64,000 nucleotides of DNA from Squalus acanthias (lineage: Eukaryota). The notes under the pieces are model-generated. The model was not told the DNA's origin. It made no database searches and saw only the letters and a list, made by a program, of their open reading frames with translations. Positions 1,609 through 62,064 of the stretch are shown piece after piece. Numbering within the stretch: position 1 is the first letter of the stretch; every line of letters starts with the position of its first letter. Location: contig CM059432.1 of NCBI GenBank assembly GCA_030390025.1, forward strand, positions 4,836,001 through 4,900,000. The letters run 5' to 3'. Position numbers and translations under genes: made by a program.

Positions 1609-2070
1609 CTATGTTAAAGGCGCTGGGTAAATGCAAGTTGTTGTTGGAGATCCAATTTCCTTTTGAAAGTCACTACTGAATCTGCTTCCACCGCCCTTTC
1701 TGGCCGCGCGTTCCAGATCACAACAACTCGCTGCGTAAAAACATTCTCCTCTTCTCCCCACATGAACATTTCCCTTCCAAATTCACACGCCACCCTGAAT
1801 TTCAAATTCAAATCATGCATGCGGGGAAAAAATGTCTTTGCCATTGTAAACATGCCAATTTAAAGTTACCTTTAATTGTACTGAAGCTTGCAATGTGTTC
1901 AGCTACCATTTGACTATCCGTATTAATTTGTGGCGATGAGTATGATGTGACTTTAATTTAGAAACCACACTACTATTGCATCCACTGTTGGAGAAAGGGT
2001 GTGTCTTCCATCATGATTTCTAGTTGCTGGCTTTACATACCTACAGGGCCTTGGCTATTGCAACAATTAT

Positions 2071-3160
2071 AAACAGAAAATGCTGGAGACACTCGGCAGG
2101 TCAGGCAGCCTTTGTGGGGAGAGAGAGAAACAGCGTTGACGTTTTGGGGCGATGACCTTTCGTCAGAACTGGAAAAAGTCGCAGATGTTATGCTGAACCT
2201 TTATAAAGCGCTGGTTAGGCCACAACTGGAGTATTGCGTCCAGTTCTGGTCACCACACTTTAGGAAGGATGTGAAGGCCCTCGAGAGGGTGCAGAGGAGA
2301 TTTACCAGAATGGTTCCGGGGATGGGGGATCTTAGCTACAAGGACAGGTTGGAGAAGCTGGATTTGTTTTCATTAGAGCAAAGGAGGTTGAGGGGTGATT
2401 TGATCGAGGTGTACAAGATTATGGCAGGTTTGGATAGGCTAGACGGAGAAAGGCTGTTCCCACTAGTTGATGGTACAAGGACTAGGGGACACAGATTTAA
2501 AGTTTTGGGCAAGAGATACAGGGGGGGATGTGAGGAAAAACTTTTTTACGCAGCGAGTGGTGATGACCTGGAACTCGCTGCCGACGGAAGTGGTGGAAGC
2601 GGAGACACTCGATGTTTTCAAGGGGAGACTGGATAGGCACTGGAGGGAAATAAATTTGCAGGGCTACCGGGATAGAGCGGGGGAATGGGACTGACTGGAT
2701 TGCTCTACAGAGAGCCGGCACGGACTCGATGGGCCGAATGGCCTCCTCCTGTGCCGTTATGACTCTATGTAACAGATTTTAAGCATGTGCAGAGGCGGGG
2801 GGAGGGGGGGGAGGAAAAAACAAAAGGGAAGGTCTGTGATAGGGTGGAAGGCAGGAGAGATTAAATGACAAAAGGGATGATGGTGTGGGGTGAAAGGAGT
2901 TGGTAACGGGACAAGTAAAGAAACAAAAGATGGGTCGAGAGGAGGTGTCACTGGGAATGGCAGAATCATCAGCAACAACTGCCGTCTTGGAAAAAATGGG
3001 GGCAGAGGTTATGGTCTCTGTCCCATTATCATCTCCTTTCGCCTTACACCATCATCTGTTTCTCTCTCTCTCCACGGATGCTGCCTGACCTGCTGAGTAT
3101 TTCCAGCATTTTCTGTTTTTATTTCAGATTTCCAGCATCCGCAGTATTTTGCTTTCGTAC
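2071..3160. mobile_element. PLE-B inverted terminal remnant interrupted by a CR1 3' fragment (~2189-2767, +)
   Basis: Minus-oriented tail with a degenerate hammerhead at 2071-2188, resuming at about 2768. Plus-oriented tail at about 3055-3160. CR1 peptide LYKALVRPQLEYCVQFWSP lies in between. Confidence 0.7.
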
Positions 3161-3920
3161 CTGTTGTAACATTAGTTCAGTAATCACCCTTAAAGCTTGC
3201 CAATGGCCAAACTTGTTAAAATGGCTATTTTAGCTTGTTAAAATTTACAGGGCTGTGGGGAAAGATCAGGACTGATTGGAGAGTTCCGCCAAAGGGGCAC
3301 GATGGGCCGAATGGCCTCCTTCTGTGCTGTATCATTCTGTGATTCTTGTATTGCCTCTACAGGCTTGTCATTAATCGGTAGAACGTCTCCAATATTTTGC
3401 TGCCCCCCCAGTTTTTGTAGAACTGCTATTCAACAACAACAACTTGCATTTACATAGCGCCTTTACCGTAGTGAAACGTCCCAAGGCGCTTCACAGGAGC
3501 GATTATCAGACAAAATTCGACACCGAGCCACATGAGATATTAGGACCGAGCTTGGCCAAAGAGGTCGGTTTTAAGGAGCGTCTTAAAGGAGGAGAGAGAG
3601 GGGCGGAGAGGTTCAGACAGGGAATTCCAGAGCTCGGGGCCCAGGCAGCTGAAGGCACGGCCGACAATGGTAGAGCGATCACAATCGGGCAGTGAGGTTA
3701 TTAAACGGCATAAACATCGCACTTGCTTTTTAATAATGGAAATGGACCCTTTCCGAGTTTTTCCTCAGCCGTGTTGCGCTATTAGATTAATCAGAATGCT
3801 AATTGGGCAGCAGGACGATGTCTTTGTGATTAATGCACCCTGTCTTTTGCACATGTTTTGAAATCAAAGTTTTGGAATATAATTATTCATTAAAAATATA
3901 TATCTGTTGTCCCATTCCAG

Positions 3921-19348: not shown

Positions 19349-19554
19349 GATGTGGAGATGCCGGTGTTGGACTGGGGTGGACAAATGTGAGAAGTCGCAC
19401 AACACCAGGTTATAGTCCAACAGTTTTATTTGAAATCACAAGCTTTCGGAGCGCTGCTCCTGACTTCACCTGACGAAGGAGCAGCGCTCCGAAAGCTTGT
19501 GATTTCAAATAAAGCTGTTGGACTATAACCTGGTGTTGTGCGACTTCTCACATT
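19349..19554. mobile_element. Short palindromic PLE-A terminal insertion with hammerhead (19466-19502, +)
   Basis: Same GATGTGGAGATGCC start as the copy at 4726, with arms of about 75 bp. TSD TCTTTA(C/A)ACATT at 19337-19348 and 19555-19566. Confidence 0.87.
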
Positions 19555-25649: not shown

Positions 25650-25785
25650 TGTTACGGGACTGAATGGAGAAGTCCACAACCTGACCACCGAGGAGAACTT
25701 TCTTTCAGGAATGTACAAGGTCCACTTTAACACTGCTGATTACTGGAGGAGGCTGGGATTTATCCCCTTTCACGAATGCGCTAAT
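25650..25785 (+). CDS. TTR: Transthyretin exon 3 (VTGLNGEVHNLTTEENFLSGMYKVHFNTADYWRRLGFIPFHECAN)
   Basis: Acceptor ttgtag, donor gtaagt, 136 nt, phase 2 to 0. Contains the GExHxLTTEE and YW..LG..PFHE motifs. Confidence 0.96.
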
Positions 25786-27492
25786 GTAAGTTTCATTTTA
25801 ATTATTTTTCCAGTGTGACTCAGTGGGCAGCACTCTCTCTCTCTCACCTCTGAGTCAGAAGGTTGTAGGTTCAATAGTCCCACTCCAGGGGTTTGAGCAA
25901 AATTATCTAGGCTGATACTCCAGTGCAGTACTGAGGGAGCGCTGCACTGTCGGAGGTGCCGTCTTTTGGATGAGACGTTAAACTGAGGCCCCGTCTGCCC
26001 CCTCAGGTGGACATAAAAGATCCCATGGAACTATTTCGAAGAAGAGCAGGGGAGTTCTCCCCGGTGTCCTGGGCCAATATTTATCCCTCAATCAACATCA
26101 CTAAAAACAGATTGTGTTATGCAGAATTATGCAGTTTAAAGAATAGAAGTTGTACAGTAGAATTTCATGCATTTGCCTTCTATAAAAAAAACACTAGCAT
26201 TTATATAGCGCCTTTCACAGCCAATGAAATACTTTTTGAAGTGAATCAACATCACCTCCTGACTCCCCAAAACCTTTCCACCATCTACAAGGCACAATAC
26301 TTGCCTGGATGAGTGCAGCTCCAACAACATTCAAGAAGCTCGAAACCATCCAGGACAAAGCAGCCCGCTTGATTGGCACCCCATCCACCACCTTAAACAT
26401 TCACTCCCTCCGCCACCGGCGCACCGTGGCTGCAGTGTGTACCATCTACAAGATGCACTGCAGCAACTCGCCAAGGCTTCTTTGACAGCACCTCCTGAAC
26501 CCACAACCTCTTCCACCTAGAAGGACAAGGGCAGCAGGCGCATAGGAACACCACCACCTCCAAGTTCCCCTCCAAGTCACACACCATCCTGACTTGGAAA
26601 TATATCGGCCGATCCTTCATTGTCGCTGGGTCAAAATCCTGGAACTCCCTCCCTAACAGCACTGTGGGAGCACCTTCACCACACGGACTGCAGCGCTTCA
26701 AGGCGGCGGCTCACCACCACCTTCTCAAGGGCACCTAGGGATGGGCAATAAATGCCGGCCTTGCCAGCGACGCCCACATCCCAGGAACTAATTTTTTTTT
26801 TTAAACTCTCTCTATGTCTACTCTATCAAAACCTCTATGGTCACCCCTCAGCCTTCTCTTTTCAAGAAAAAAAGAGACCCAGCCTGTTCATCCTTTCCTG
26901 ATAGGTATAACTATCATTATTCAAGGGATAAGTGCATCAATATTTTAGTGTTTGTGGTACAGCCGTGCGTATGTTGAAGTTAAGCGTAGTTAAAGGTTGA
27001 CATTTGATTTTGATCCCTGGGATTCCGTTAGCTGGGGAACAAAGGGGCCTTATCCGAGCACTAATCCTGTTGGTTGCGGTTGTTTTTGTTGGCGTATCCC
27101 GCCGCCACACCCATTCCGGCACTGAACACTTTCTTCCACCTAGTTTGGATACAGTCAGGGACTTGTGCCAAGTAAGCCTCAAGTGAAGGACCTCAGAATG
27201 TTTAGCATTCCCTGAAACCCGGGTTCAACATCGCTCTTTTTTAAAAAAAAAATCTATAAAAAGTTCCATATTGTACAACGGCTAAACTGAATCCTCACTT
27301 CCCTTTATTCATTATGTACGAGTGATTTACGAGCGTTAAAATATTGGCATACAGCACTGTAGTCCATTAGGCCACCTGTACAATGGTCAAAGCTGATTAC
27401 TGATTAACTAGACCTCAAATAGCAGCAACAACACAATGTTATGGATACAAGAAGCTTATCGAGCATTCAAAACTGGAACTGAGCAGTTTCGT

Positions 27493-30055
27493 AGAATCAT
27501 AGAATGAGACAGCACAGAAGGAGGCCATTCAGCCCATCGTGCCTGTGCTGGCTCTATGAAAGAGCTCTCCAATTAGTCCCGCTCCCCTGATCTTTCCCCA
27601 CAGCCCTGCAAATTTTTCCTTTTTAAGTATTTATCCAATTCCCTTTTGAAAGTTACTATTGAATCTGCTTCCCCCACCCTTTCAGGCAGCGCATAACAAC
27701 TCGCTGTGTAAAAAAAAAAAAAAATTCTCATCTCCCCACTGGATTTTTGCCAAATCTCTTAAATCCATGTCCTCTGGTTACCAACCCTCCTGCCAGTGGA
27801 AACTGTTTTTTTCCCCATCTATTCTATCAAAAACCCCTCTATTAATTCTCCCCATAACCTTCTTTGCTCTAAGGAGAACAATCCTGGCTTCTCTAGTCAC
27901 TCCACATAAATGAATACCCTCATCCCTGGTACCATTCTGGTAATATCCTCTGCGCCCTCTATTGAACACAATATTCTGGGCTGAGGCATAACCAGTGAAT
28001 TATAAACGTTTGCCATAACTTCCTCGCTTTTGTACTCTGTGCCTCTATTTATAAAGTCAAGGATCCCGTATACTTTTATCACAGCCTCATCAACTTGTCC
28101 TGCCACCTTCAAAGATTTGTGTATTTGAACACCAGCTCTCAGTTCCTGCACCCCCTCTTTGAAATGGTACCATTTAGTTTATATTGCCTCTCCTCATTCT
28201 TCCTACGAAAATGCGTCAGTTCACACCTTCTCTGCATTAAATTTCATCTGCTGTGTGTCCGCCCATTTCACCAGTCTGTCCACGTCCTTCTGAAGTCTGT
28301 TGCTATCCTTCTCATTGTTTACTACATTTCCGATTTTCGTATCATCTGCAAACTTTGAAATTATACCCCCTATACCCAAGTGCAGGTCATTAATACATAT
28401 CAAAAATAGCAGTGGTCCTAATACCGACCCCTGGGGGACACCACCACACACCTCCCTCCAGTCTGAAAAGTAACTGTTCACCACTACTCTCTGCTTTCTG
28501 TCCCCCAGCCAATTTTGTAGCCACGCTGCCACTGCCCCTTTAATCCCATTGACTTCAATTCTCCGAACAAGTCTATTATGTGGCACTTTATCAAACCCCT
28601 TTTGAAAGTCCATATACGCAACATCAACCGCACTACCCTCATCAACCCTCTCCGTTGTTTCATCGAGGAACTCAACCAAGTTAGTCAGAGACGATTTGCC
28701 TTTAACAAATCTGTGTTGGCCGTCATCGATTAACCCATGTTCTTCCAAATTCATTGTGTCTCGGATTGTTGTCTCTAAAAGTTTCCCCACCACCGACCTT
28801 AGGCTGACTGGCCTGTAGTTGCTGGGTTTATCCCACTCCCCTTGTTTGAACAAGGGTGTAACATTTGCAGTCCTCCAGTCCTCCGACACCACTCCCATAT
28901 CCAAGGAGGATTGGAGGATTGTGGCCAGAGCCTCCGCAATTTCCACCCTTACTTCCCTCAGTAACATCCCATCCAGACCGGGTGACGTTTCTACCTTGAG
29001 GGCTGCCAACCATTTCGGTACCTCCTCTTTATCTATTTATATCCAATCCAAGTTCTCTACTCCCCTCCTCCTTTCAACATTGTAACATTGGCAGCATCCT
29101 CTTCTCTCGTGAAGACAGAAGCAAAGTGCTCATTTAGTATCTCAGCCGTGCCCTCTGCCTCCACAAGATGATTTCCTTTTTGTTCATTAATCGGCGCAAC
29201 CTTTCCTTTGACTGCCTTTTTACTCTTCATATGTTTATAAAAAAACTTTTAATGTTCCTTTTTATGTTACCCGCTAATCTTTTCTCATAGATTCTCTTTG
29301 CCCCTCATATTTCCCTTTTCAATTCTCCTCTGTACTTTCTGTATTCAGCTTGATTATCTACTGAATTATGAACCTGACATTTATCATAAACCTCCTTTAT
29401 CTGTTTCATTTTAACCGGGTAGCGCTCTCACCTTTGAATCAGAAGGTCATGAGTTCAAGTCCCGTCCCCAGAGAATTGAGCACATAAAGCTAGGCTGACT
29501 CTCCAGCGCAGGGCTGAGGGAGTGCTGCACTGTTGGAGGTGCCGTCTTTCGGATGAGACGTTAAACCGAGGACCCATCTGCTCTCTCGGGTTGACGTAAA
29601 AAATCCCATGGCACTAATTCGAAGAAGAGCAGGGGAGTTCTTCCCGGTTTCCTGGCCAATATTTATCCTTCAACCAACATCACTAAAGAAAAACAGATTA
29701 TCTGGTCATTGCTGTTTGTGGGAGTTTGCTGTGCGCAAATTGGCTGCTGCGTTTCCTACATCACAACAGTGACTACACTTCAAAAAGTGCTTCATTGGCT
29801 GTAAAGCACTTTGGGACGTCCTGAGGTCATGAAAGGTGCTATAGAAATGCAAGTTTTTCTTTTCTTTGTTTGAATATCTTTAGTCATCCAGGGAGCTTTA
29901 ACATTGGATGCCTTTCCTTTCCCCCTCGTGGGAATGTGTCTAGTCTGTACCCAAACTATCTCCTCTTTGAAGGGCTCCCATTGCTCATTTACTGTTTTAC
30001 CTGCCAATCTTTGTTTCCAATCCACCTGGGCCAGCTCCTTTTTCAACCCACTGAA
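27493..30055 (-). mobile_element. Decayed CR1 LINE (~2 kb) with a nested SINE at ~29417-29865
   Basis: The 262-aa RT-like ORF at 28221-29009 and flanking frameshifted ORF2 sequence. Confidence 0.88.
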
Positions 30056-30079
30056 AATACTCAACTGGAAGAGGGCTAA

Positions 30080-30605
30080 TCACACGCTCACTCAGACCTC
30101 ACCGTCCTCGGCCTCTTGCATTGTTCCACGGAAGCGCAGCGTAAGCTCCAGGAACAGCACCTCATCTTCCGTTTAGGCACTTTACAGCCTTCCGGACTCA
30201 ATATCGAGTTCAACAATTTCAGATCATAACCCCGGCCCCTACCACATATGTATACATTTTATCCACTCTTTTGGTCCGTGCCTTTTTCCTTTTTTTCTCT
30301 CTCTCCCCCCACGGCAGCTGTCTCTGATTCTGCCAGCATTTCACACCTTACCTTTTGTTTCTCAACCTGTCCCATTACCATCTCGCCTTGCCTTGAGCAT
30401 CTCTTAATGTCTCTACTCACTCAAGACCATCCCTTTTGTTCTTTTATTCCTCCCCCCAGCCTCCCCCTTGCATTTTTATCTGTTTATTTCTTGCTCTTTC
30501 AGTTCCGACGAAGGGTTTCAACCTGAAACGTTAACTCTCTTTCTCTCTCCACGGATGTTGCCTGGCCTGCTGAGTTTTTCCAGCGTTTTCTGTTGTTATT
30601 TCTAA
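30080..30605 (+). mobile_element. Penelope-like element family B, 3' end (GIY-YIG C-terminus and terminal repeat)
   Basis: Translates as HAHSDLTVLGLLHCSTEAQRKLQEQHLIFRLGTLQPSGLNIEFNNFRS*, similar to the end of the PLE-A ORF. Followed by a hammerhead-like motif (30501-30536) and the GATGYTGCCTGRCCTGCTGAG tail. Confidence 0.8.
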
Positions 30606-31084
30606 TTTCACCTTTGATTGTTCCTCATCCATTTCCATAGCTACTCTGAACCTAATAGATATTGTGATCGCTCTTCCCCAGATGCTCCCCCACTGAAACA
30701 TGCTTCACTTGCCCCACTTCATTCCCCAGAACTAGGTCCAGCACGGCTTCCTTCCTCGTTGCTCTGGAAATGTACTGATCAAGAAAATTCTCTTGTACAC
30801 GTTTCAGGAATTCCTCCCCCTCTTTGCTTTCAATAATCTGGGATTATTTAAATGGAAGAATTTCTGGATCTTTAAAAGATGTTTCTTTAAGATTTATAAC
30901 ATTGTGCGATCCATATGAACACTTACTGGAAGGTTCTTAAACTAAAATGTCTAATATTCTTTTGATGATCAACTTGAGTTAAAACACTGTGACCATCATC
31001 AACTAAGTATACTTTTTACTGCAATTCTGCTTTACATCTTTGCTGCACTTTGGGGAACATATAAAACCGTAGAACAGAAAACAA

Positions 31085-31326
31085 AAGCAAAAACACTGCG
31101 GATGCTGGAAATAAAAACAGAAAATGCTGGAAGTACTCAGCAGGCCAGGCAGCATCTGTGGAGAGAGACACAGAGTTAACGTTTCGGGTTGGTGACCTTT
31201 CATCAAAACTGGAAAAAGTTAGAGATGCAACAGATTTTAAGCAAGTGCAGGGGCAGGGAAAGGCAGGAGGGGACAAAAGAACAAAGGGGGAGTTCTGTGA
31301 TAGGGGGCAGCATCTGTGGAGAGAGT

Positions 31327-31366
<40 letters not shown>

Positions 31367-31975
31367 GAGTTAACGTGTCGGGTCCAGAAAAGCCCGTTTC
31401 TTCCAATACACCATGGCCTCCAACTAATCAAACCCAAAGTTTCTGAGGAAGGTGATTTTTCCACACCAGGCAAAACTTCCAAAATAATCAGCTTCTTCCA
31501 CATGTTCTTGCCACGCACTGAACAACCCTCCACAACCGATCCGTAACATCAGCAAAAATACTGCGGATGCTGGAAATCTGAAACATAAACACGGAATGCT
31601 GGAATTACTCAGCAGGTCGGGCAGCATCTGTGGAGAGAGAGAGAGAGAGAAACTAGAGTTAACGTTTCAGGTCGATGACCCTTCGTCAGAACTGCAAGAT
31701 GTTAAGAGCATAGGCCAGCCAGTCCCAAATTATCAGCATCTACATTTGGAATTACTGTTTAAAGGGTCAAATCTAATCTTTTTAGAACTAGGAAACTAAA
31801 AAGCAGCCAGTTACATATCAATGGGACGAAAGCAAAATACTGCGGAGACTGGAAATCTGAAATATAAACACGGAATTGCTGGAATTACTCAGCACGTCGG
31901 GCAGCGTCTGTGGAGAGAGAGAGAGAGAGAGAAACTAGAGTTAACGTTTCAGGTCAATGATCTACCATCAGAACG
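31085..31975 (-). mobile_element. Cluster of PLE-B terminal fragments in TTR intron 3
   Basis: Repeated AAATACTGCGGATGCTGG...GCAGCATCTGTGGAGAGA...GAGTTAACGTTTC units starting near 31085, 31306, 31550 and 31830. Confidence 0.75.
31657..31693 (-). ncRNA. Minimal hammerhead ribozyme (PLE-B)
   Basis: Minus strand reads AGTT-CTGACGA-A-GGGTC-atc-GACCT-GAAA-CG-TT-AACT. Confidence 0.78.
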
Positions 31976-32009: not shown

Positions 32010-32114
32010 GTGGTTTTTCGAGTGGCCAGCTCCGAACATCATCACTACACTCTCGCACTTCTTTTGAGTCCTTTCTCCTACTCCACTACAGCAGTCGTCA
32101 GCAACCCACACTAG
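32010..32114 (+). CDS. TTR: Transthyretin exon 4, coding part ([34 protein letters not shown])
   Basis: Acceptor tttcag, stop TAG. The [13 protein letters not shown] terminus is TTR-type and lacks the YRGS motif of HIU hydrolase. Confidence 0.96.
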
Positions 32115-33808: not shown

Positions 33809-34442
33809 GTGGCTCGGCGTCAAATTTGGTTCCGCAATGCTCCTGAAACACCTTGGGACATTTTACTATGTTAAAGGCACTATATAAATGCAAGTTGTTG
33901 TTGTTTAGTGTGGCCACAAAGTACCTTAAAGCACTTATTTGCTTTTGACTACACCAGGTACAGAGGGTAAAACCAAAACATTTGTGAAGACGTCAAGCTT
34001 CCTATAAAATAAGATAGAATTGCATGGAGAGAGGTGGGAAAATTCAACACAAAGCCTTTGAGTGCTGGTATTGTTTATTTTCATAAAAGAATGATACAAA
34101 ATATACAAATATTATCACAAACACACCACAAGACAACAGAGATCCTTAGAAATAATCCATTACGGTTAACAGTGCATTGTACAGCTTAGCATGCCTTTTA
34201 ATTCTTCCTGCAACATGCTACAATAAATTATTTTTGCCTATGAACTGTCTTTATACTGTATTTTTAAGGATGTAAAGAACATGTAATTGTATAGTACCTT
34301 ACACAAACATGGGCTGTTATATGATTGGCAACTCCGCAAGTTCGATCGTTGGAATTTGAACTAAAAACTTAAGTGTTGCTGCCACCAGTACATGTTTTCA
34401 CCGACTGCAAATGCAGTTTCTTCCCTTCCAGTTTTGGATGCA

Positions 34443-34650
34443 ATACATATACATTTAATATATAAATAATATATTATCATATACATTTAATATATATATG
34501 TTTAATGTATATATCATATACTTGATATGTATATTATATATCATACATTTAATATATATATTTATATATTATATACAATATATATATTTATATACATTTA
34601 ATATATATTTATATATATCATACATTTAATATATATTCTATATATAAAAA
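34443..34650. repeat. AT-rich low-complexity (TA)n-like tract
   Basis: Degenerate ATACATTTAATATATA units. Confidence 0.85.
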
Positions 34651-37590
34651 TAAGTGTATGTATGGATAAAAGTTAAAGTGCACAATCCTTTCAGTTAATA
34701 CTGAAAAATAGAAGCATCGCGATACACTAGAAAGGCAAAACGTATATAATGGTGTGCACTACCTTAAAGTTCTCTAGGGTTATCGCTGATATTGTTAGCA
34801 AGAATTCATGTTAAGATTGAAGAAAAACACAAAATAAAAGATGTGCCACGCATGTTAAGGTTTCCTTTTAACTCAAAATTTTAAATGGACTCAACTAGAT
34901 TTTAGGATGCAGTTTAAAAAAAAAAAAAATCTGCCCTTCCATTCAGAGAATTTTAACAAAATGCACGACTAGATAAATGTAATTTAGAGGAACAAGGGAG
35001 CAGAAGGGGCTGGCTTTGACAATTTGATTTGATAGTTTAACGATCATTAATGATTGGTGGTTTAAGAATTAGAAAGACTTTTGTAAAATCGATTGGTGGA
35101 CTAAGGTTAGCGAGAAGTTACTGCACTTTTAATTTTCAGCCTCAGTTTAAGAATCTTTAGATAGTTTTTGATATAATTTGATGTTTTTATTCACAGAAGT
35201 GAATCAATTAGACATTTCCCTCCCCCCTCCCACTTCATACCACTCACTGGTTGAGAGGATAAGCATGCAACTTTTGTCTCAGCCTCTGTCCATTCTGCTC
35301 TACAAGGAGAGAGCAGGGCCTGGAATGACATCCTCCTAGTTGCTTTGCCCCCTTCTCTGTAGAGGAGCCTGCAACTTCCAACTCTGTTCCCCCAAGACCT
35401 GATTGAGACTGGGAACTTGTCACGCAATGAACTGCGACAACAACACAGCTCTTTCGTGCACAAAGGCATTGTAACATGGAATTATCACTGGGAAGAGGGA
35501 GATCTATTCTTGAGAAAATTAATTTTGTGCGTGTGTGAATTTTTAGAATTCAGTATTGAATACCAGAGGCAAAAGCCTCCATTCCTGCCTCGGGAAGTTC
35601 ACGGCAAAGTGTGGGAAGCCCAGAAGCGGACGGTGCTCAAAGAAAATCAACAAGATACTAAAGGCACCCTATATATTGTGAAACCTACTCTACAGAAACA
35701 GTCTGCTATTGGTAGGACTAACCTGCGCTATATTCCGTAACATCCCTGTTTGCAGTGAGTTCAGCTGTCCCACATCTTGTGTTGTGCTCCATGCTCCAAA
35801 TGCCACCCTTAAGCCACAAAAGCCCAAATGAAGGTGAAGCCTGTTGTGCGAGTGGGTGGGGGGTCAACTTAAATCAAAGCTAGCAATAGAGGGGGAGAGG
35901 GCAAGGGAGAATGCAGTGACCCAAAAATGGGTTGAAACTAAAATCAGCCTAAACTGATTCAGAATAGTTGTAGGAACCCCAACCTCCTACAGCAACACTG
36001 GCAAGATTTTAAATTTTAAAAAAGTGAACCTTCATTATAATAAGATTTATTAGCACATTTTTGTCAAGATACTTCAGTTCCTGCACCTCTGGACGCTACT
36101 CTTTAGTGCTTGCACAAGTGCAAGGTTCACGGATAATTTAAGCTTCCTTTCTATCCAGTATTCAGTTAGGCGGTCGGGACTAAACAGTACTGAAAAGTTT
36201 GCAACTGGCAGACAAACCAAAGCCAGAACTTTGAACACTGGGTCAAAATCCTGGAACTCCCTCCCCAACAGCACTGTGGGAGCACCTTCACCACACGGAC
36301 TGCAGCGGTTCAAGGCGGCGGCTCACCACCACCTTCTCAAGAGCAACTAGGGATGGGCAATAAATGCTGGCCTTGCCAGCGACGCCCACATCCCATAAAC
36401 AAATTTTTAAAACTGTACAGTCACTAGTGATAGCAGTTAACGGGTGTTTTAAGCCATTACCCCAAATGCTTTTCTCCCCCACAGGATGCCAGTGTCCTGT
36501 TCAGGTAAGTCATCCAACTTTACTGTAAGGATATTTGCTCTCGTTTTTCTTGAAGCACCTGTAGTTTTTCCCCTTCTAGTACTTCTGAAGCAACGTCTTC
36601 TTTTCATCAACACTTTTTCAATCTAATTTAATACAAAACGGCTCACTTTTACTACTTGTTATTTGACTATCTTTTGAACCAGTTTGCATGGTTTCGTTCT
36701 TCAAGTGCATTCAAAAATATAAAATGTACAGCTGACAAAAGTATTGACCTTAAATCAAAAAGAGAGAAAAAGCTCTCAAGTGTGGTTAGTGACGATTGTG
36801 ACAAGTTACACAGAAAAGATTTGTAAATGCACAACAATGAAAACAAACAATACCAGGCACATCCACAACTGGAGAACTGCTGCCGTCGCCCACGAATGAG
36901 TCAAGAAAACATTTCTTGGGCTCCTCGATGAAACAGCAGATTTTGAACGAAACAAAGTGAGAAAACAGAGAAATTACTTGCAGCCGTTGAAGGGCAATGC
37001 AATGTTGCCCTTCCCTAATTGGTGGAGTCTAGCGGTTATATCCGTTTCCATCAGATTAAATCAAAGCAAAAGGCAGGTTTTTAAAAGACATTCAACAAAT
37101 CCCAACCTAAAAATCAAAAGGCATGGAACATCATCTGAAAGGAGGCTATTTGCACAGAATCATTCCAGCATCTCAGTAGTACTGGCCTATATACAGCGCT
37201 CCGATGGGATTTTACTCACTACATGCTTTTATAACTATTGGCATACGCATGTTAACTTTAGAATGCTTGGTTTCTTTTCTAGGTTATAGAAAGCAGGCTT
37301 TCACTTTCCAAATATGAATCCAGGTATGGCAAGTTTATCAATGCCGAATTTCTATGCATGCAGGAATTCTGCAGGGAAATGAGAATGGATGGTCAAAGCT
37401 ACTCTCGTCAGAACAGAGTGGCAGGAAATAGATTTGGTTGGGCAAATGAGAAAAGTCAATAGTTTCTGAAGGGCTGATGCAAACATAGGTCAGCACACCC
37501 GAAATCCTGCAAGATGAAATTTTGGTTCAGCTAGTAGTTTATCTTCACGCCCATCTTGGCTTTAAACTCCTCTTCCCCACTTACACAAAT

Positions 37591-39330
37591 CCCTCCGATC
37601 GCACCGTGCCACACCCTCCGATCGCACCGTGCCACACCCTCCGATCGCACCGTGCCACACCCTCCGATCGCACCGTACAACACATTCCGATCGCACCCTG
37701 CCACACCCTCCGATCGCACCCTGCCACACCCTCCGATCGCACCCTGCCACACCTCCGATCGCACCGGGCCACACCTCCGATCGCACCGTGCCACACCTCC
37801 GATCGCACCGTGCCACACCTCCGATCGCACCGGGCCACACCCTCCGATCGCACCGGGCCACACCCTCCGATCGCACCGGGCCACACCCTCCGATCGCACC
37901 GGGCCACACCCTCCGATCGCACCGGGCCACACCCTCCGATCGCACCGGGCCACACCCTCCGATCGCACCGGGCCACACCTCCGATCGCACCGGGCCACAC
38001 CTCCGATCGCACCGGGCCACACCTCCGATCGCACCGGGCCACACCCTCCGATCGCACCGGGCCACACCTCCGATCGCACCGGGCCACACCTCCGATCGCA
38101 CCGGGCCACACCTCCGATCGCACCGGGCCACACCTCCGATCGCACCGGGCCACACCTCCGATCGCACCGGGCCACACCTCCGATCGCACCGGGCCACACC
38201 TCCGATCGCACCGGGCCACACCTCCGATCGCACCGGGCCACACCTCCGATCGCACCGGGCCACACCTCCGATCGCACCGGGCCACACCCTCCGATCGCAC
38301 CGGGCCACACCTCCGATCGCACCGGGCCACACCTCCGATCGCACCGTGCCACACCTCCGATCGCACCGTGCCACACCTCCGATCGCACCGTGCCACACCC
38401 TCCGATCGCACCCTGCCACACCTCCGATCGCACAATACCACGCCTCCGATCGCACAATACCACGCCTCCGATCGCACCGGGCCACGCCTCCGATCGCACC
38501 GGGCCACGCCTCCGATCGCACCCCGCCACGCCTCCGATCGCACCCCGCCACGCCTCCGATCGCACCCCGCCACGCCTCCGATCGCACCCCGCCACGCCTC
38601 CGATCGCACCCCGCCACGCCTCCGATCGCACCCCGCCACGCCTCCGATCGCACCCCGCCACGCCTCCGATCGCACCCCGCCACGCCTCCGATCGCACCGT
38701 GCCACGCCTCCGATCGCACCGTGCCACGCCTCCGATCGCACCGTGCCACGCCTCCGATCGCACCGTGCCACGCCTCCGATCGCACCGTGCCACGCCTCCG
38801 ATCGCACCGTGCCACGCCTCCGATCGCACCGTGCCACGCCTCCGATCGCACCGTGCCACGCCTCCGATCGCACCGTGCCACGCCTCCGATCGCACCGTGC
38901 CACGCCTCCGATCGCACCGTGCCACGCTTCCGATCGCACCGTGCCACGCCTCCGATCGCACCGTGCCACGCCTCCGATCGCACCGTGCCACACCCTGCGA
39001 TCGCACAATACCACACCTCCGATCGCACCATGCCACACCTCAGATCGCACCGGGCCACACCTCCGATCGCACCGTGCCACACCTCCGATCACACCGTGCC
39101 ACACCTCAGATCGCACCGTGCCACACCTCAGATCGCACCGTGCCACACCTCAGATCGCACCGTGCCACACCTCAGATCGCACCGTGCCACACCTCAGATC
39201 GCACCGTACCACACCTCAGATCGCACCGTGCCACACCTCAGATCGCACCGTGCCACACCTCAGATCGCACCATGCCACACCTCAGATCGCACAACATCAC
39301 ACCTCCGATCACACCATACCACACCTCAGA
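37591..39330. repeat. 22/23-bp CpG-rich minisatellite (CCACAC(C)CTCCGATCGCACCGKG), roughly 75-80 units
   Basis: Tandem array read directly from the sequence. Confidence 0.97.
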
Positions 39331-40105
39331 AGATTAACCCAAGCTAAACCCATTTTACTTTCAGAAAGTAAGTACTTTCCGAATCATAACTAGACGGCTA
39401 AGTGACTTGGCAGTGTATAACACTACTGTAATAAGGTATGATTTTAGCTGACAGAAACCAGACAGTATATTGCAATTCTTTCCATTATTCAGTATGGAAA
39501 GCAAATGATGTGTCTTAAAGACTATTTACATTTTGTTCTTACATGCCAAGTTACATACATATATACTTCCTTTTTAAAAGGAACATCACACAAATGCATC
39601 AAGTTCAATAGTATAAAAAAACGGAGTGGCAAAGTGCACAATTTTACAGTATATTTACAAATCCATAGCATTATTTCAAGTGGACCGTAAGCCTTCATTT
39701 TAGCTAAAAATACAATATGTTATGCAATACCTACAAATGGGAATTCTATTGGCTCTAACACCTTTGTACAGGAACAGCTGATCAGGACAAGAAAGCTAAT
39801 ACAATAATGTGAGGGCTTAATAATGAGAGTAGCCCTGCTTGTAAACCTCTTGATTTCAGGATGATGGCAGGTTGTCTTTCAAAATGCAGGATGAATTCAT
39901 TAGCAAAGCTAGTGCGCACACATGCAGGTACAATCAGCTGTTCAAAATTCGGGACTCATGCCGTCATTGAATCATCCACAGCTGAGGTGGTTTGGCTGTT
40001 CCTCAAGACCCTTAAAGCCCTTCACTGAACCGCCATAGAATAAAATACTCCGAAATCCATAATGTTCCAGGAAAGCTGTTAAAATTCAAGATGGTCCCAT
40101 CCTCT

Positions 40106-42923: not shown

Positions 42924-43046
42924 CTCCGCCACAGGTCATCATCCTCTCCACCCCATCCCCAGAAAGCATTGGGAAAGCCATTGATCTTTTTGAACTGCTC
43001 CGATGTGAGACCACTGACTCCACCGAAGAATTCGTTGTACGGCAGA
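42924..43046 (-). CDS. B4GALT6: B4GALT6 exon 7 (LPYNEFFGGVSGLTSEQFKKINGFPNAFWGWGGEDDDLWR)
   Basis: Acceptor ttctag, donor gtaagg, 123 nt. WGWGGEDDD catalytic motif. Confidence 0.97.
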
Positions 43047-43951
43047 CTAGAAAATAAGAGGAAATATATAGGTAATCATTCATAAACTGTATGGCATGAA
43101 ATTTTAAAACAAAAAGAATCCAAAAGAAAATGGAAATATAAAACTCACCCATTTAGCTCGTCAGTGCATTAAAAAAGATATTTAATATGTTAACCAGAAC
43201 ATAAAATATACAGGGCAAAGAAACAGCAACTTGTTAAAAGGAAAGCAAATATAGCAGCTGTGTTTCAACTTAAAATATTATTCCACTCAATTAACAGAAC
43301 GCAGCAACAGAAAAGGATTCTGGATGGTCATACTGATGGTACAACTGAAGATGGAAGCGTCTACAAAGTTACTGGTGAATCAATGTAGTTGATGCATTTA
43401 AAAGACTTGCATTTCTATAGCGCCTTTCACGACCACCGGACGTCTCAAAGTGCTTTACAGCCAATGAAGTATTTTTGAAGTGGAGTCACTGTTGTAATGT
43501 GGGAAACGCACAGCAAGCTCCCACAAACAGCAATCTGATAATGGCCAGATAATCTGTTTGAGCGATGTTGGTAGAGGGATAAATATTGGCCGGGACACCT
43601 CCCCTGCTCTTCTTCGAAATAGTGCCACGGGATCTTTTATGTCCACCTGAGAGAGCAGACGGGGCCTCGGTTTAACGTCTTATCCGAAAGACGGCACCTC
43701 CGACAGTGCGGCACTCCCTCAGCACTGCACTGGGAGAGTCAGCCTAGCTTCTTGTGCTCAAGTCTCTGGAGTGGGACTTGAACCCACAACCTGCTGACTC
43801 GGAGGAGAGTGACTGTGCTGCCCACTGAGCCACGGCTGACATTGAAGGGGAAGCTAGCTAAGTACATGAGGCAGAAAAGGAGCAGAAGAATATGCTGATG
43901 GGGTTAGATGGAGTAGGCTGGGAGAAGGTTGGTGTGGAGCATAAACACGGG

Positions 43952-44078
43952 CAACGGTCTCTGTAAGCTGCGCGGCAGCGCACGGCCCAGGGATCCCGCG
44001 CAGCCAGCTTTTCAATACAAAAACCACCGGTATTTTGAAGGGGCCGCACGGCGCCAAACAAAACTAGAAGGAACCTTG
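43952..44078. mobile_element. hAT-type MITE, same family
   Basis: Degenerate TIRs, TSD AACA(C/T)GGG, shared internal GGTATTTTGAA.GGGCC. Confidence 0.75.
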
Positions 44079-44511
44079 AACATGGGCATTGACCAGCTGG
44101 CCTGAATGGCCTGTTTCTGGGCTGTAATTTCTATGCAACTCTGTGCATTTACTCCCAACGACAACAAGATATCTTGGATGTATAACACTGCAGATAATCT
44201 TGGGTTACAGAGAAACTTTTAAGTCCTGACTAACCTAATTTCCATACAATAGGTTTATAGAAAGAAGGGTGAGCAAAAGTAAAAATTTAGCTTGAAAATT
44301 TTTAAGAATGGTGCAAAAATAGAACTTAAAAATTTCCACAAAGTTTACCGTGCAATTTCAGTACCTGCACTGTGCAGTTTTCTCAGTCCCTCTCCCACCG
44401 CCACCCCCCCCCCCCCCCCCGCCCCCCCCCCCAAAAACAACTTCAGGTTTTGCCCTCTAGAGGAAGACGTCCAAACTATAGGAGGTGCCAATGGATGGCG
44501 CAGATACTTAC

Positions 44512-44699
44512 ATGTACATGTACTTGTCCAGCTTTGATGCAAAATGCCGTGGCATCTGCCCACATCCGTAGTAGTTGCGATCACTTTCTGGTATGTGATC
44601 GACATCGTGGAAAACGAGGCAGTCCCAATCCAGATCTTTCATAGCCTCCATAAAGCCAACATTAAATAGCATTGCACGATTAAAGGGATAGTTACCAGC
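44512..44699 (-). CDS. B4GALT6: B4GALT6 exon 6 (AGNYPFNRAMLFNVGF...FHDVDHIPESDRNYYGCGQMPRHFASKLDKYMY)
   Basis: Acceptor tcccag, donor gtaagt, 188 nt. FNRA and DVD motifs. Confidence 0.97.
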
Positions 44700-47599
44700 C
44701 TGGGAGGGTGAGAAAAAAGAACAAATTTAATTGCACGTAATAGAGCTGCACTCAAAACTATTTCAGAGAGTTACGCAGCGACAGCACATGAAGTTTCAAA
44801 TCATTACACATGCTTGTTTTTCTTTCTGAACCACTTCATGGAAATGAGTGAAAAGGTAACAAAAAAAAGTGCTCGAAGAAAGGTCAACCAAAAATAGAAA
44901 TTGGACGCCATACAACAACTTGAAGTTATACAGCGTTTTTGATGTAGAAAAACATCCCAAGGCGCTCCACAGGGGAGGAAAGGAGCAGGTGTTGAGCATT
45001 TGTGAAAGGATTAGGAGACGTGACAGAAAGTTTGGTCAAAAAAATGTGTTTTGAGAAGGGCGGAGGAGAGCATTAGTGCGCAGGGGGCGAGGGGGGGGTT
45101 GGGGGGAGATACACGAGCGGGATAGATGAGAGAGTGCAAGATAAATGGATATGAGAGAGGGGGAAAAGATTGATAGATAGTAAAAATTTGGGGAGGGTTG
45201 GGGGAGTGAAGGAGAGAAAAAATAATCGTTGCATTTACATAGTGCCTTTTATGGATCTCAGGACATCCCAAAGTGCTTTACAGCCAATTAAGTACTTTAA
45301 GTGTAGTTACTGTTACACTGTAGGGAAATGTGCCAGCTAATTTGCAAACAGCAAGGTCCCACAAAAAGCAAATGATACAAATGACCAGATAATCCGATTT
45401 TAGTGCTGTTGGTCGATGAATAAATGTTAGCTGGACACTGGAAGAACTCCCTCACGCATCTTCAAATAGTGATATGGGATATTTTACGTCTAACTGAGAG
45501 GGCAGGCCTTTCCGTTTACATGTCTCATCTAAAAAGACGGTACCAGCAAGCCTCACCCCAAAAGACGGTACTAGCAACAGTGCACCACTCCCCCAGTAAC
45601 GCACTGAAATGTCAGCCACATTATGTGCTGGAGTTCAGGTTCTGGGAGCGTGGCTTGAACCTGAATCAGAGGCAAGAGTGCTACCTCTTAGTGAGAGCGA
45701 GAGATAGCACAATAGGGAGGAAGAGAATGAGAGAGATAGTGAACGAGAGAGTAAATGTCACGAGAGAGAATGAGAAACTAACCCATGTCTACAGCTATTG
45801 CCACGGGGCAAGCAGTGTGATGAAGAAAAGTAGTTGAATGGTCAGGAGTTGGGTAGCAAGGGGGAAATCGAGGGAGAAGGAAGTGGCTGTCCTGGAAAAG
45901 GTGAGCTTCAATAGCAGGGGTGGAGCAAGTGGGAGACTGGGGTTAGGTTGAGGGAGGGTTTGAGATAGTCAGCGTTGGGGGCAGGGATGAAGGGGCAGCA
46001 ATGGCAATGGCGGAGACCGTTGTTTGGATAGTCTCAATATTTAAGATAAAAAAGACCATATGCTTCTTGCACTTGGCATTAGAAGTGAAGGTGAATGAGG
46101 TTCAGGGAAGGTGGTCAGAGGAAGTGGTTTGTTGTTAAAGAGTTGGAGATTGTCCTTAGCTGCATGATGACCCTGGAATAAGAAAAGTTGTCTGTAGACA
46201 GGGAGGTGCGTTCTTGTTCAAGATGTTAAAGCCAGATATGGGGACGTACGACGAGATCAATCATAAGCTTGGTGTACAAGACCCCAGAGGGCTTCAGGCA
46301 TGAGGGAGCAAAAGTGGGAACTCTTATCAGGGAGCAGCAGGGGTTAGAAACTGTTAAGAACTTGGTGCTGACAAGGGTGTCAAAAGGAGCACCAAATGAG
46401 ATGTTGAGCAATGGCGTGACAAATGAGGTCAAAGAGGAAATTGGAAGTTAGAAAGTGCCTGGATGAGAGTGCCACGGTTTTGCATGCAGGCGAATGTTCC
46501 CACTCCTAAAGCCAGAGGTAGGATGGGGGATATAGATTGTGAGCGAGAGAAGGAGATGATCAGAGATTTCTTCATCATTGATCAAATGCAGGTTGGGTGC
46601 CCCATTATAGAAATGAAAACAAAGCCATAGGAAGCATATGATGAGATTCACCAGGATGATTCGCCAGAGATGGGAAAATATTTGACACTTGAAATAATGG
46701 GGCTATTTCCCCTAGAACAGGGAAGGAGGCCGAGGAGATTTGGAGGTTTTTAAAATTATGAAGAAAATTTATACAGCACCTATAATGTAGAAAAATGTCC
46801 CAAGGTGCTTCACAGAGATATGGGGGGGTGGGGGGGCGGGGGCAGGGGGAGGGGGCTAAGGGGAAAGCAAGCCAAAAAGATTAGGAGGGATGATCAAAAG
46901 CTTGGCTAAAGACATGGGTTTTAAGGAAGGTGTTAAAGGAAGAGCAGAAGATATCAACGCAGAGAGTTTAGAGAAGGAATTCCAGAGAGTTGGACCTAGG
47001 CGGCTGAAGGCCACCAATAATTGGACAAAAAGATGGGTGATGCACAGGAGGCCAGTGTCAGAGGAACAGAGAGTTGTAGGGCTCGAGGAGGTAATAGAGA
47101 TAGAGCAGAGTGAGGCCATGGAGGTATTTAGACACAAGGATGGAAGAGGAAAGAGGGAGAAATTAATTCTGGAGCATCAACTGGAAAGGATGATGTGTTA
47201 GAATATGCCAATTAGGGACTGATGTTAGCTGTGATGCCCCCACATGTCCAACATCACGATGAATACAGGGCTGCTGGTACCTTCAGGAGTAAAGTGTAAA
47301 ATAAATTGGAGCAAAAAATACCTGAACGTAGTAAAAGGCTGACATTTCTCATTGATGCTTCTTTTCCCCACTCACAATTGGTAACATTCAATTGTAGTTT
47401 CATCACTTGTGTAGTGTTCAGTCATGCCAGCAAAAAGGAGACTACACCGATCAGCTATATTTTATGTAACCATCAAAATACTAGGCGGTATAATATTCAG
47501 CACCATCTAGCGAGTCAAAATATCATCTGTACTATTTAAGTAATCCATACTTAGGGCAGAAAACTCTTGCCATTTAAAACCCTTAGTTTCCATTTCTTG

Positions 47600-48910: not shown

Positions 48911-49218
48911 TCCCCTTCCAAGGTATATGCACCATTCCCTGGTTGGAACAGCAACCAGTTGATGTACTCCCAGGTCTCTTAACAATATTCTAAAAACAGT
49001 CTAGGTAGCTCATTTTCCTTTCCAAATGATGAAGGGGCTAATACAGCACCACCACATCTATCAGGTGAGGGATGACGGTTCAAATTTATTATGACTTCAC
49101 ACCCATTATATCACTGAAATAGAAAGGTTATTAAGCTGTGGTCCAATTCCTACCTTGAAAAAAAAACCCCACCTCTGGTCTAGTTAGCTTCTACAACCTT
49201 AATTGTAAAAGTTATTAC

Positions 49219-49335
49219 CTGCTCAATAACATAGAAGCCAAACTGCACTCGTTGTCGTTGAAGCATCGGAATCAAGTGCCGGAATAGAATTGGGAGATGC
49301 TCGTGACGGTTGCGGAATGGAATAAGTATTGCCAC
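49219..49335 (-). CDS. B4GALT6: B4GALT6 exon 5 ([39 protein letters not shown])
   Basis: Acceptor ttacag, donor gtaata, 117 nt. PFRNR motif of the GT7 family. Confidence 0.96.
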
Positions 49336-50805: not shown

Positions 50806-51254
50806 AAAGAAAATAAACTGACTATAAATTACAGCATCCCATCAGGAAAAATTGTTAGCTGTAGCATCTTATTGCATTATACTGCATAATTTTCATTCGA
50901 TTATTTAAGGGACCTCTCGATGATTCAGCTAGCTAAGGCAGTGTTAAGCTAAACTATAGACCAAAAAAGTCAACATCTAATTCACGATGCTATGAAATTC
51001 CACCCACTCTGCTGGGATTTGCAATCTCAGTTGCATTGATATCCAAGAGTGGGGAGGGGGTGGGGAGGGAGGGGGGGGGGGGGGGGGGAGGGGGGGGAGG
51101 GGGGGGGGGGGAGAGAGAAAGAGATGCTCTCACTAGCTTTTGTAGCAACTAATTGATGGGGTGCAACAAGACAGGCAATTTTCTTGTAAAAGATTTGTTT
51201 ACATTAGTATTTTCTGTAAAATCCACCGTTTTAGTTCACAATTTGCTACCTCAC

Positions 51255-61320: not shown

Positions 61321-61702
61321 GTGGTCCTAAAGCCTAGTCACTTGCCACTGAGCTCCTAAGCTCTCTGGACTTAGGAAAATGAGGTGTAGCGCAAAGAAGA
61401 GTGAGTGTGCATTCCACACCACGCAAAGAGGAACTGTACTGGAGTGCGGATTTCTCAATAGCTTGGTTTGGAGACCTCTTAAGCACGGTGATGGGTTCCC
61501 ACGCAGGTCAGACATCAGGCTGACTGAAACAAAGTGTAATGCGTTGTACACCCACTAGATGGAGTGCTGGCCAATTGAATGTTCAGAAGCAACAACAGAA
61601 AATAAAAAAAACAGAAAACCTTCCCTTTGATATTTCCTCCCTGCTCGCCTTTCCCTGCCTCTGCACTTGCTTAAAAACCCGTTACATCTCCTAACTTTTT
61701 CC

Positions 61703-61739
61703 AGTTCTGATGAAAGGTCATCGGCCTGAAACGTTAACT
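61703..61739 (+). ncRNA. Minimal hammerhead ribozyme (PLE-B) within terminal fragment ~61615-62008
   Basis: AGTT-CTGATGA-A-AGGTC-atc-GGCCT-GAAA-CG-TT-AACT. Confidence 0.78.
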
Positions 61740-61785
61740 CTGTTTCTCTCTCTCTCTCTCCACAGATGCTGCCCGACCTGCTGAG

Positions 61786-61934
61786 CAATGTTCCCGCTAG
61801 GCTGCACGGTCATCTGCAGGGTCCCGCGCAGCCCGCAAAAATTTTGAATGGGCCACGCACTGGGGGGGGGGGGGGGGGGGGGGGGGGGGTGAGGCAAGCC
61901 GCGCAGGAGGCCATGCGGCTTACAGGGGACATTG
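61786..61934. mobile_element. hAT-type MITE, same family, inserted in a PLE-B tail
   Basis: TIRs CAATGTTCCC and GGGGACATTG; perfect 8-bp TSD CTGCTGAG. Confidence 0.82.
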
Positions 61935-62064
61935 CTGCTGAGTATTTCCAGCATTTTCGGCTTTTATATCAGATTCCCAGCACCCGCACTGCACTATTTT
62001 GCTTTTGGCCACTCAGCATCCATGACAAAAAAAAGGCAATTTAACGTTTCAAGTGTAAGCCATT

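What the first reader, a model, noticed from the sequence alone, without database searches (positions are those of the whole stretch)
30080..31975. Second, independent hammerhead-bearing PLE family clustered in TTR intron 3
Seen: a GIY-YIG-type C-terminus (EQHLIFRLGTLQPSGLNIEF*) followed by AGTT-CYGAYGA-A-stemII-GAAA-CG-TT-AACT. The architecture matches family A but all helices differ (stem I AGUU/AACU, stem III palindrome ACGU instead of AGCU). Cores are intact at 31657-31693 (-) and 61703-61739 (+). They are degenerate at 30501 (U4>C), 31174 (C3>U), 31939 and 2134. About five termini lie within 1.9 kb. Inference: the very common repeat GATGCTGCCTGACCTGCTGAG is a PLE terminus, so this genome may hold very many hammerheads, and this intron is an insertion hotspot or a local tandem expansion.
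Basis: partly seen in the sequence, partly recalled or inferred. Interest (0 to 1): 0.7.

Follow-up and report, generated by a model that had tools for sequence, protein, structure and literature searches.

The report
Penelope retroelement ends with minimal hammerheads
These are old, truncated tail ends of a very abundant Penelope-like jumping gene, each with the small hammerhead ribozyme motif known from such elements since 2014, so the find is real but ordinary, apart from the family's possibly very high copy number.

Summary
Five termini of one repeat lie in the last 2 kb of transthyretin intron 3. Two window copies (31657-31693 -, 61703-61739 +) pass a strict minimal-hammerhead descriptor (7 hits in the window, 5 of them family A; 0.015 per shuffle). 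One copy joins the motif, through a 271-nt 3' UTR, to the last 49 codons of a GIY-YIG ORF whose relatives are Neptune-type Penelope-like element (PLE) proteins. The copies show the PLE signature: 5' truncation, an inverted end, a partial tandem and an optional ~30-nt tail. The five termini are probably four insertions. One is shared with another organism, and the cluster is no proof of a hotspot. The ACGU stem III is the commonest published state (about 29 of 56). The hammerhead fold is poorly populated in prediction, and covariation is inconclusive. No full-length family-B element was found. Depth in four runs is 4x10^4 to 7x10^5 times single-copy, which points to about 10^5 copies but is not a count. 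This scan already noted hammerhead-bearing PLE ends elsewhere in this genome. Verdict: new member of a known kind.

The parts
30081..30601 (+). 5'-truncated PLE family-B copy: ORF end, 3' UTR, hammerhead, short 3' end; candidate 5-bp target duplication CTAAT (30076-30080 / 30602-30606, weak)
30081..30229 (+). last ~49 codons and stop of a PLE GIY-YIG endonuclease domain (true 5' break somewhere in 30076-30089)
   Evidence: loose ends at 30089 continue the ORF in other copies
30501..30536 (+). degenerate minimal hammerhead (U4>C); the only sense-strand copy in TTR intron 3
31082..31384 (-). one partial-tandem insertion: tail piece 31305-31384 joined to 3' UTR, hammerhead and long tail; 7-bp target duplication CAGAAAA (31075-31081 / 31385-31391)
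31174..31210 (-). degenerate minimal hammerhead (C3>U, private to this copy)
   Evidence: (97-99% of laid depth has C3)
31545..31700 (-). short family-B copy with long tail; its 3' junction is also bridged by a contig of organism B
   Evidence: X6 record 23
31657..31693 (-). minimal type I hammerhead with intact core, antisense to TTR
31823..31975 (-). short family-B copy with degenerate hammerhead (31939-31975); ends 35 nt before the TTR exon 4 acceptor; 87-90% like the 31657 copy
61611..62007 (+). family-B copy outside the cluster; intact hammerhead at 61703-61739; tail split by a 149-bp element with 8-bp target duplication
2065..3161 (.). one head-to-head family-B insertion: 2065-~3040 (-) with short end, degenerate hammerhead ~2134-2170 and an inserted CR1 piece ~2190-2766; 3055-3161 (+) inverted tail with long end
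25650..25786 (+). transthyretin exon upstream of the intron (exon 3)
32010..32114 (+). transthyretin last coding exon (exon 4)

Best explanation
The repeats are dead-on-arrival 3' ends (pseudo-LTRs) of an old, very high-copy Neptune-type Penelope-like retrotransposon family in a vertebrate, probably a shark or ray (host inferred, not tested). Shown: the order ORF end - 3' UTR - hammerhead - tail; 5' truncation at different points; two 3' end classes about 30 nt apart; an inverted end; a partial tandem. Inferred from published PLE work: the element's RT/GIY-YIG protein nicks A/T-rich DNA and starts reverse transcription at one of two sites about 80 and 110 nt 3' of the hammerhead. It usually stops within a few hundred bases, so most copies hold the motif and tail but no ORF. 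The hammerhead is the minimal type I form. It has no helix III of its own, so it could cut (GUU^AAC) only as a dimer through the ACGU palindrome or with protein help, in the parent element's tandem transcript. In these solo copies it is most likely inert and decaying. The cluster is four old insertions (three, if 31657 and 31939 arose by local duplication) in a stretch that later repeats diluted less than the rest of the window.
For: Descriptor hits 7 vs 0.015 by chance. The 49-aa end matches PLE endonuclease ends (best 68-72%) and 816-924-aa proteins at 47-54%; P0118 has sub-cut-off RVT_1 and GIY-YIG matches. 50 of 54 long relatives carry the CX2-5CxxC linker that marks Neptune/Nematis (PMC8557442, passages). 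Contigs of other copies run on into the ORF at 30089 (166 and 130 contigs in X6 and X8) and into the family 3' UTR at 31694 (151-261 contigs in all four runs). The 3' UTR of the ORF-bearing copy aligns with that of the 2134 copy (score 99, 0 of 500 shuffles) and the 31174 copy (46, 1 of 500). 2 short and 5 long 3' ends among 7 termini, with the long end on one side only of the head-to-head insertion, as described in PMC8557442 and PMC11167929. C3 holds 97-99% of depth. 7-bp target duplication around 31082-31384, null share 2.3%.
Against: No full-length family-B element was found: no genome is held, two DNA-pattern scans and two protein-profile scans gave no locus, and no long protein is closer than 54% over 40 or more residues of the fragment. 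The 3' UTR link is weaker for the intact 61703 copy (score 29, 18 of 500 shuffles; blastn does join it to the 31174 copy at 81% over 175 nt) and nearly absent for 31657. Covariation in 6 copies does not beat shuffles (388 of 500). The hammerhead fold has probability about 0.001 in both intact monomers, against 0.12 for family A, and the dimer fold lies 13-16 kcal/mol above the best dimer. Pair 10.1-11.1 is R-U, not G-C. No clear target duplication for 31657 and 31939.
Confidence: 0.86

Rival explanations
1. Most short copies are a non-autonomous, SINE- or retrozyme-like derivative made of the hammerhead and tail, moved in trans by the PLE protein, rather than truncated full elements.
For: Two copies (31657, 31939) begin within about 10 nt of stem I. 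Depth at the tail is several times depth in the 3' UTR bins. Non-LTR retrozymes are reported as pLTR derivatives, including in one chondrichthyan (10.64898/2026.07.22.740005).
Against: 5' ends are staggered (30081, ~3040, ~31300, ~61611, ~31700, 31975). Depth at the ORF end is as high as at the tail, 1-5x10^5 times exon depth. There is no tandem of two complete units, and spacers are near single-copy.
Confidence: 0.12
2. The 31657 and 31939 copies arose by an old local duplication or gene conversion, so part of the cluster is a tandem expansion.
For: They are head-to-tail 280 nt apart, 87-90% identical, and share about four features absent from the five other copies aligned. One 23-nt flank segment is weakly alike (8 of 500 shuffles).
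Against: Other pairs reach 76-90%. Flank similarity is weak after five comparisons, and its offset (about 245) does not match the element offset (280). Shared features could equally mark a subfamily.
Confidence: 0.3
3. The end of TTR intron 3 is a true targeted hotspot, for example through nicking in or beside the element's own pLTR.
For: 4 of 6 insertion events lie within 1.5 kb; P = 0.0007 if uniform over the window. The anole PLE protein cuts A/T-rich sites in its own ORF-pLTR junction in vitro (PMC11167929).
Against: 55% of the window is other repeats; on the remainder P = 0.007, or 0.07 if one event is a duplication. The window was picked for this cluster. No copy is nested inside another family-B copy.
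Confidence: 0.12
4. The copies were kept because they regulate TTR, by ribozyme cleavage, a fold-back between the inverted copies, or an effect on exon 4 splicing.
For: The 31657 junction is shared with organism B. The 30519-30602 and 31108-31191 arms are 89% complementary. The last copy ends 35 nt from the acceptor.
Against: The one intact core is antisense to TTR and the only sense copy has a broken core. 3 of the 4 cores in the cluster have decayed. Orthologous intron pieces differ by 3-4%, with no sign of extra constraint measured.
Confidence: 0.03

Closest known systems
Minimal hammerheads (min-HHR) in pLTRs of metazoan PLEs (Cervera and De la Pena 2014, PMC4209133; Results, Discussion, one Methods section, supplement parts 1-2 of 3 read)
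   Same: Type I topology, 4-bp helix I, extra base between 9 and 10.1, no helix III loop, palindromic 15.2-16.2; many solo truncated copies; several families per genome. C-G at 15.2/16.2 is in about 29 of the 56 listed motifs, G-C (family A's state) in about 5 (counted by eye).
   Different: No cartilaginous fish is among the 56 listed motifs, and AGUU/AACU with this stem II is not among them. Pair 10.1-11.1 is R-U (also seen in a few listed rows). Copy number may be about tenfold above the 4,000 (coelacanth) and 9,000 (Xenopus) reported.
Neptune-clade PLEs and the general PLE insertion structure (Craig et al. 2021, PMC8557442; passages read)
   Same: C-terminal GIY-YIG end; relatives carry the CX2-5CxxC linker; partial tandem, inverted 5'-truncated copy, 30-40-bp tail at one end.
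   Different: The window fragment holds neither RT nor the linker, so the clade is inferred from relatives. No tree with named references was made.
PAc, Poseidon PLE of Anolis carolinensis (Frangieh et al. 2024, PMC11167929; main text parts 1-2 of 4 read)
   Same: Two 3' end classes that fit two reverse-transcription start sites; A/T-rich flanks; a hammerhead upstream of the 3' ends. Its hammerhead needs protein to cut and is not needed for insertion in vitro.
   Different: Different clade. In PAc the ORF starts inside stem II; no such start could be shown here (the 28-codon tail frame matches none of 54 long relatives).
Non-LTR retrozymes (Li, Clavereau, Pollet 2026, 10.64898/2026.07.22.740005; parts 1-3 of 5 read, supplements closed)
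   Same: Type I hammerhead in pLTR-derived sequence; reported in one chondrichthyan genome.
   Different: [quoted passage not shown] This cluster has unrelated spacers and one intact core.

Membership tests
PLE minimal hammerhead (min-HHR) | CUGANGA + GAAA + UH catalytic boxes | tested here: met
   2 of 6 window copies intact; C3 in 97-99% of laid depth in four runs. Other core positions were not visible genome-wide (182 rows of the table not shown).
PLE minimal hammerhead (min-HHR) | short helix I, helix II of 4 or more bp, extra nucleotide between 9 and 10.1 | tested here: met
   helix I 4 bp, helix II 5 bp, extra A
PLE minimal hammerhead (min-HHR) | palindromic 15.2-16.2, no helix III loop | tested here: met
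   ACGU in all 6 copies aligned
PLE minimal hammerhead (min-HHR) | G10.1-C11.1 pair (highly conserved, not universal) | tested here: not met
   A-U or G-U. The same departure occurs in published rows such as cichlid, Xenopus (1), Latimeria (2) and D. willistoni, so it does not exclude membership.
PLE minimal hammerhead (min-HHR) | compensatory changes in helices | tested here: inconclusive
   87% of cells paired vs 6-44% when slid; 1 two-sided change; 388 of 500 shuffles as high; only 6 copies
PLE minimal hammerhead (min-HHR) | self-cleavage as dimer or with protein | not testable with these tools
   folding predicts a poorly populated active fold
EN+ Penelope-like element | C-terminal GIY-YIG endonuclease upstream of the pLTR | tested here: met
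   the 49-aa end aligns to the end of GIY-YIG-bearing proteins; the GIY-YIG motif itself is upstream of the break
EN+ Penelope-like element | RT in the same ORF, in a full-length copy with two pLTRs | tested here: inconclusive
   only in relatives at 54% or less over the fragment; no family-B locus found
EN+ Penelope-like element | 5' truncation, partial tandem, inverted copy, optional 30-40-bp tail | tested here: met
Neptune clade | CX2-5CxxC linker between RT and endonuclease | tested here: inconclusive
   absent from the truncated fragment; present in 50 of 54 long relatives and in P0018 and P0108; shared with Nematis
Non-LTR retrozyme | tandem repeat with two or more consecutive complete hammerhead units | tested here: not met
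   one intact core in the cluster; spacers near single-copy and not clearly homologous

The most novel reading that the evidence does not exclude
Family B alone supplies about 10^5 hammerhead-bearing ends, making this lineage roughly tenfold richer in hammerheads than any vertebrate in the papers read (about 0.55 likely on its own). In addition, its cleavage site sits two bases 5' of a branch-point-like adenosine (UUAAC), followed by a pyrimidine tract and CAG|AUG. Self-cleavage and splicing of a pLTR intron would then compete on the same few bases, a ribozyme/splice switch that could also drive exonization and selection against sense-strand intronic copies (about 0.15 likely).
Probability: 0.12. 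Interest if true: 0.62.

Novelty: new member of a known kind. Interest (0 to 1): 0.24.

Why it matters
As a class it adds little: hammerheads in PLE ends, several families per genome, truncated solo copies and the tail signature are all published. What could matter is scale. If the depth ratios reflect copy number, these genomes hold about 10^5 minimal hammerheads of one family, at many stages of decay and shared across species. That would be a good natural data set for the open question of whether PLE hammerheads are under selection to cut. It also identifies a very common repeat of these genomes as a PLE end, which helps annotation.

Tried and rejected
Genome-wide count: not possible, no genome is held. 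Rfam: no hammerhead model matched at E up to 1; the minimal form lacks helix III, so this is not evidence against. DNA-pattern scans of viral and metagenome contigs: 0 loci. Profile scans of the same collections: 123 and 192 pattern matches, none confirmed. Sequencing runs: no RNA holder listed; no RNA run was laid, so nothing is known about expression. Extension of the ORF upstream of 30076 (weak in-frame blast hits at 29921-30075): rejected, since the minus strand there reads as a CR1-type fragment (CR1 identity recalled) and its contigs end at 30056. The tail frame at 3078-3161 as the PLE start: no match among 153 proteins or 54 long ones. Homology of family A and B 3' ends: none. Selection against sense-strand hammerheads: consistent in TTR (1 sense copy, broken) but n = 1, and intact family-A motifs at 5000 and 9075 lie on the + strand near cadherin-like + strand exons, so not pursued. 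Presence of the 31939 copy in organisms B, C and E: undecided; their exon-4 contigs carry 62, 62 and 77 unaligned letters on the left. The 31082 junction is covered by only 27 letters on the element side in B and C, below the tool's 31-letter rule, so it is not counted as bridged. Literature: five searches aimed at cartilaginous fish found no paper counting hammerheads there except the 2026 retrozyme preprint. Repbase and Dfam could not be searched, so the family may already have a name.

Full report
Observation. A strict minimal type I descriptor (CUGANGA, stem II of 3 or more bp, GAAA, paired 15.2-16.2, UH, stem I of 3 or more bp) gives 7 hits in the window. Five are family A (5000, 9075, 19470, 58460 on +; 4845 on -) and two are family B (31689 -, 61707 +, positions of C3). 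The mean in 200 shuffles is 0.015, the maximum 1. The four other family-B motifs are degenerate: U4>C at 30501, C3>U at 31174, A9>G with broken stems at 31939, G12>A at 2134. A fifth terminus in the cluster, 31305-31384, keeps only the 3' half of the motif. Rfam finds no hammerhead, as expected for a form without helix III. The flanking exons at 25650-25786 and 32010-32114 match the transthyretin family, each below the curated cut-off because they are pieces; the exon numbering is recalled. Two corrections: the peptide ends IEFNNFRS*, and 271 nt of pyrimidine-rich 3' UTR separate the stop from the motif.

Link to a PLE. The 49-residue end finds three short proteins at 63-72%. A profile of it with two of them finds 3,137 proteins, of which 150 were listed. 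The fragment aligns to their extreme C-termini. Of 9 proteins scanned, 6 match GIY-YIG (2 above the cut-off) and 4 match RVT_1 (2 above the cut-off; one of those, P0009, looks like a fusion with another element's RT). Among 54 proteins of 700 residues or more, none is closer than 54% over 40 or more residues of the fragment, and 50 carry the CX2-5CxxC linker that marks the Neptune and Nematis clades (PMC8557442, passages). In contigs laid at 80% likeness, 166 (X6) and 130 (X8) have loose ends at 30089 whose consensus reads, by eye, as the preceding residues of the same domain. At 31694, 151 to 261 contigs in each of the four runs run on into the family's 3' UTR. So the window copies are truncated and other copies go further. 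A full-length family-B element was not found: no genome is held and four collection scans were empty. The RT link is therefore by homology only.

Anatomy. The copies start at staggered points and end at one of two places about 30 nt apart: short at 30601 and 2065, long at 31082, 31545, 31823, 3161 and 62007. The 2065-3161 locus is one head-to-head insertion, split by a CR1 piece, with the long end on one side only. 31082-31384 is a partial tandem inside a 7-bp direct repeat (null share 2.3%); the 5-bp repeat around 30081-30601 is weak (null 26%); 31657 and 31939 have none above 4 bp. This is the published PLE arrangement (PMC8557442, Fig. 2 legend). In the anole element the two ends match two internal reverse-transcription start sites, the endonuclease prefers A/T-rich DNA, and the hammerhead cuts only with protein and is dispensable for insertion in vitro (PMC11167929, parts 1-2 of 4). 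Loose ends at 31829 are heterogeneous (agreement about 0.4) and A/T-rich, which fits.

The ribozyme. The motif meets the published description in helix I, helix II, the extra base after A9 and the palindromic 15.2-16.2 (PMC4209133). It departs at 10.1-11.1 (A-U or G-U), as a few published rows do. None of the 56 is from a cartilaginous fish. C3 holds 97-99% of the depth at 31206 in all four runs, so the family as a whole has it; other core positions were not among the 40 rows shown of 222. Against activity: the hammerhead fold has probability 0.0015 and 0.0009 in the two intact monomers (family A 0.12), because core bases pair elsewhere, and the dimer fold is 13-16 kcal/mol above the best dimer (family A about 10). 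Pair counts on six copies are inconclusive. Family B shares no 3' end similarity with family A and their endonuclease ends are 38% identical. It is a separate family, but nothing shows a separate origin of the ribozyme.

The cluster. Five termini reduce to four insertions. Four of six family-B events within 1.5 kb has P = 0.0007 under a uniform model. Other repeats cover at least 55% of the window, and on the rest P = 0.007, or 0.07 if 31657 and 31939 count as one event; the window was also picked for this. Those two copies are 87-90% identical and share about four features, but their flanks are at best weakly alike (8 and 6 of 500 shuffles in five comparisons) and the spacer has near single-copy depth. 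Same subfamily or old duplication cannot be separated. The insertions are old: copies differ by 10-24%, and a single-copy contig of organism B bridges the 31545 junction with 10 differences in about 250 letters. The only intact core in the intron is antisense to TTR.

Abundance. 39,257 to 97,342 contigs per run were laid on 2.4 kb, which also holds two other repeats. Summed depth over TTR exon-4 depth is 4-16x10^4 in the hammerhead bins, 2-7x10^5 in a tail bin and 1-5x10^5 at the ORF end. The tool warns that this is no copy number; I take it only as an order of magnitude. Published counts are about 4,000 (coelacanth) and 9,000 (Xenopus), and 14,255 tandem retrozymes in axolotl. The retrozyme preprint includes one chondrichthyan; its counts are in a figure and supplements that I could not see, and they may bear on this claim. 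Searches gave no other paper on hammerheads in cartilaginous fish; PMC6155905 mentions 'shark' only for the name (passages), and the other papers were seen as listings only. The host is inferred from recalled repeat types and earlier notes, not from a call.

A lead. Right after the cleavage site the tail reads UUAAC, a 15-30-nt pyrimidine tract and CAG|AUG: 5 of 8 termini have CAG (4 of them followed by AUG), two have CGG and one CAA. This looks like a branch point and acceptor overlapping the ribozyme. D. virilis Penelope has an intron end in helix I. Pyrimidine-rich DNA gives false acceptors easily and no RNA was examined, so it stays a hypothesis.

Verdict. A real, correctly read feature of a kind described in 2014. 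Earlier notes of this scan report hammerhead-bearing PLE ends elsewhere in this genome and in another; a look-up by sequence found nothing, so I cannot say whether they concern this family. New member of a known kind; interest 0.24.

Noticed in passing
window 61786-61934: 149-bp element inside the family-B tail, with imperfect terminal inverted repeats (CAATGTTCCC / GGGACATTG) and an exact 8-bp target duplication CTGCTGAG; looks like a non-autonomous hAT-type transposon (class recalled).
   Followed up: partly
window 55699-58545 (+): Near full-length family-A PLE: RT (RVT_1) and a GIY-YIG-type end with CX4CxxC linker in one frame broken by one stop at 57541-57543, with a hammerhead at 58460.
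   Followed up: partly
window 19408-19531 and 4780-5090: Fold-back family-A ends; the first gives sub-threshold Rfam matches to plant microRNA precursors (MIR7807, MIR396), an artefact of the hairpin.
   Followed up: partly
family-B tail, e.g. window 31630-31662 (-): Branch-point-like UUAAC overlapping the cleavage site, then a pyrimidine tract and CAG|AUG; the two copies with CGG instead (30501, 3077) are both on the + strand.
   Followed up: partly
window 31304-31312: The partial tandem joins tail to 3' UTR at a short shared CTGCC-like stretch, as a template jump during reverse transcription would.
   Followed up: no
window 30609-30826: Another repeat of unknown class between the convergent copies; depth about 10^3-10^4 times exon depth, no second copy in the window.
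   Followed up: no
window 42955-51300 (-): Exons of a beta-1,4-galactosyltransferase (motif matches); the 61703 copy and the full family-A element may lie antisense in its upstream introns, not shown.
   Followed up: partly
window 62164-63999 (-): 611-codon open CR1-type RT frame running off the window; probably a young copy (class recalled).
   Followed up: no
window 37500-39400: About 1.9-kb tandem array that is open in several frames on both strands.
   Followed up: no
window 34250-35000: Very A/T-rich stretch (GC about 24%) downstream of TTR.
   Followed up: no
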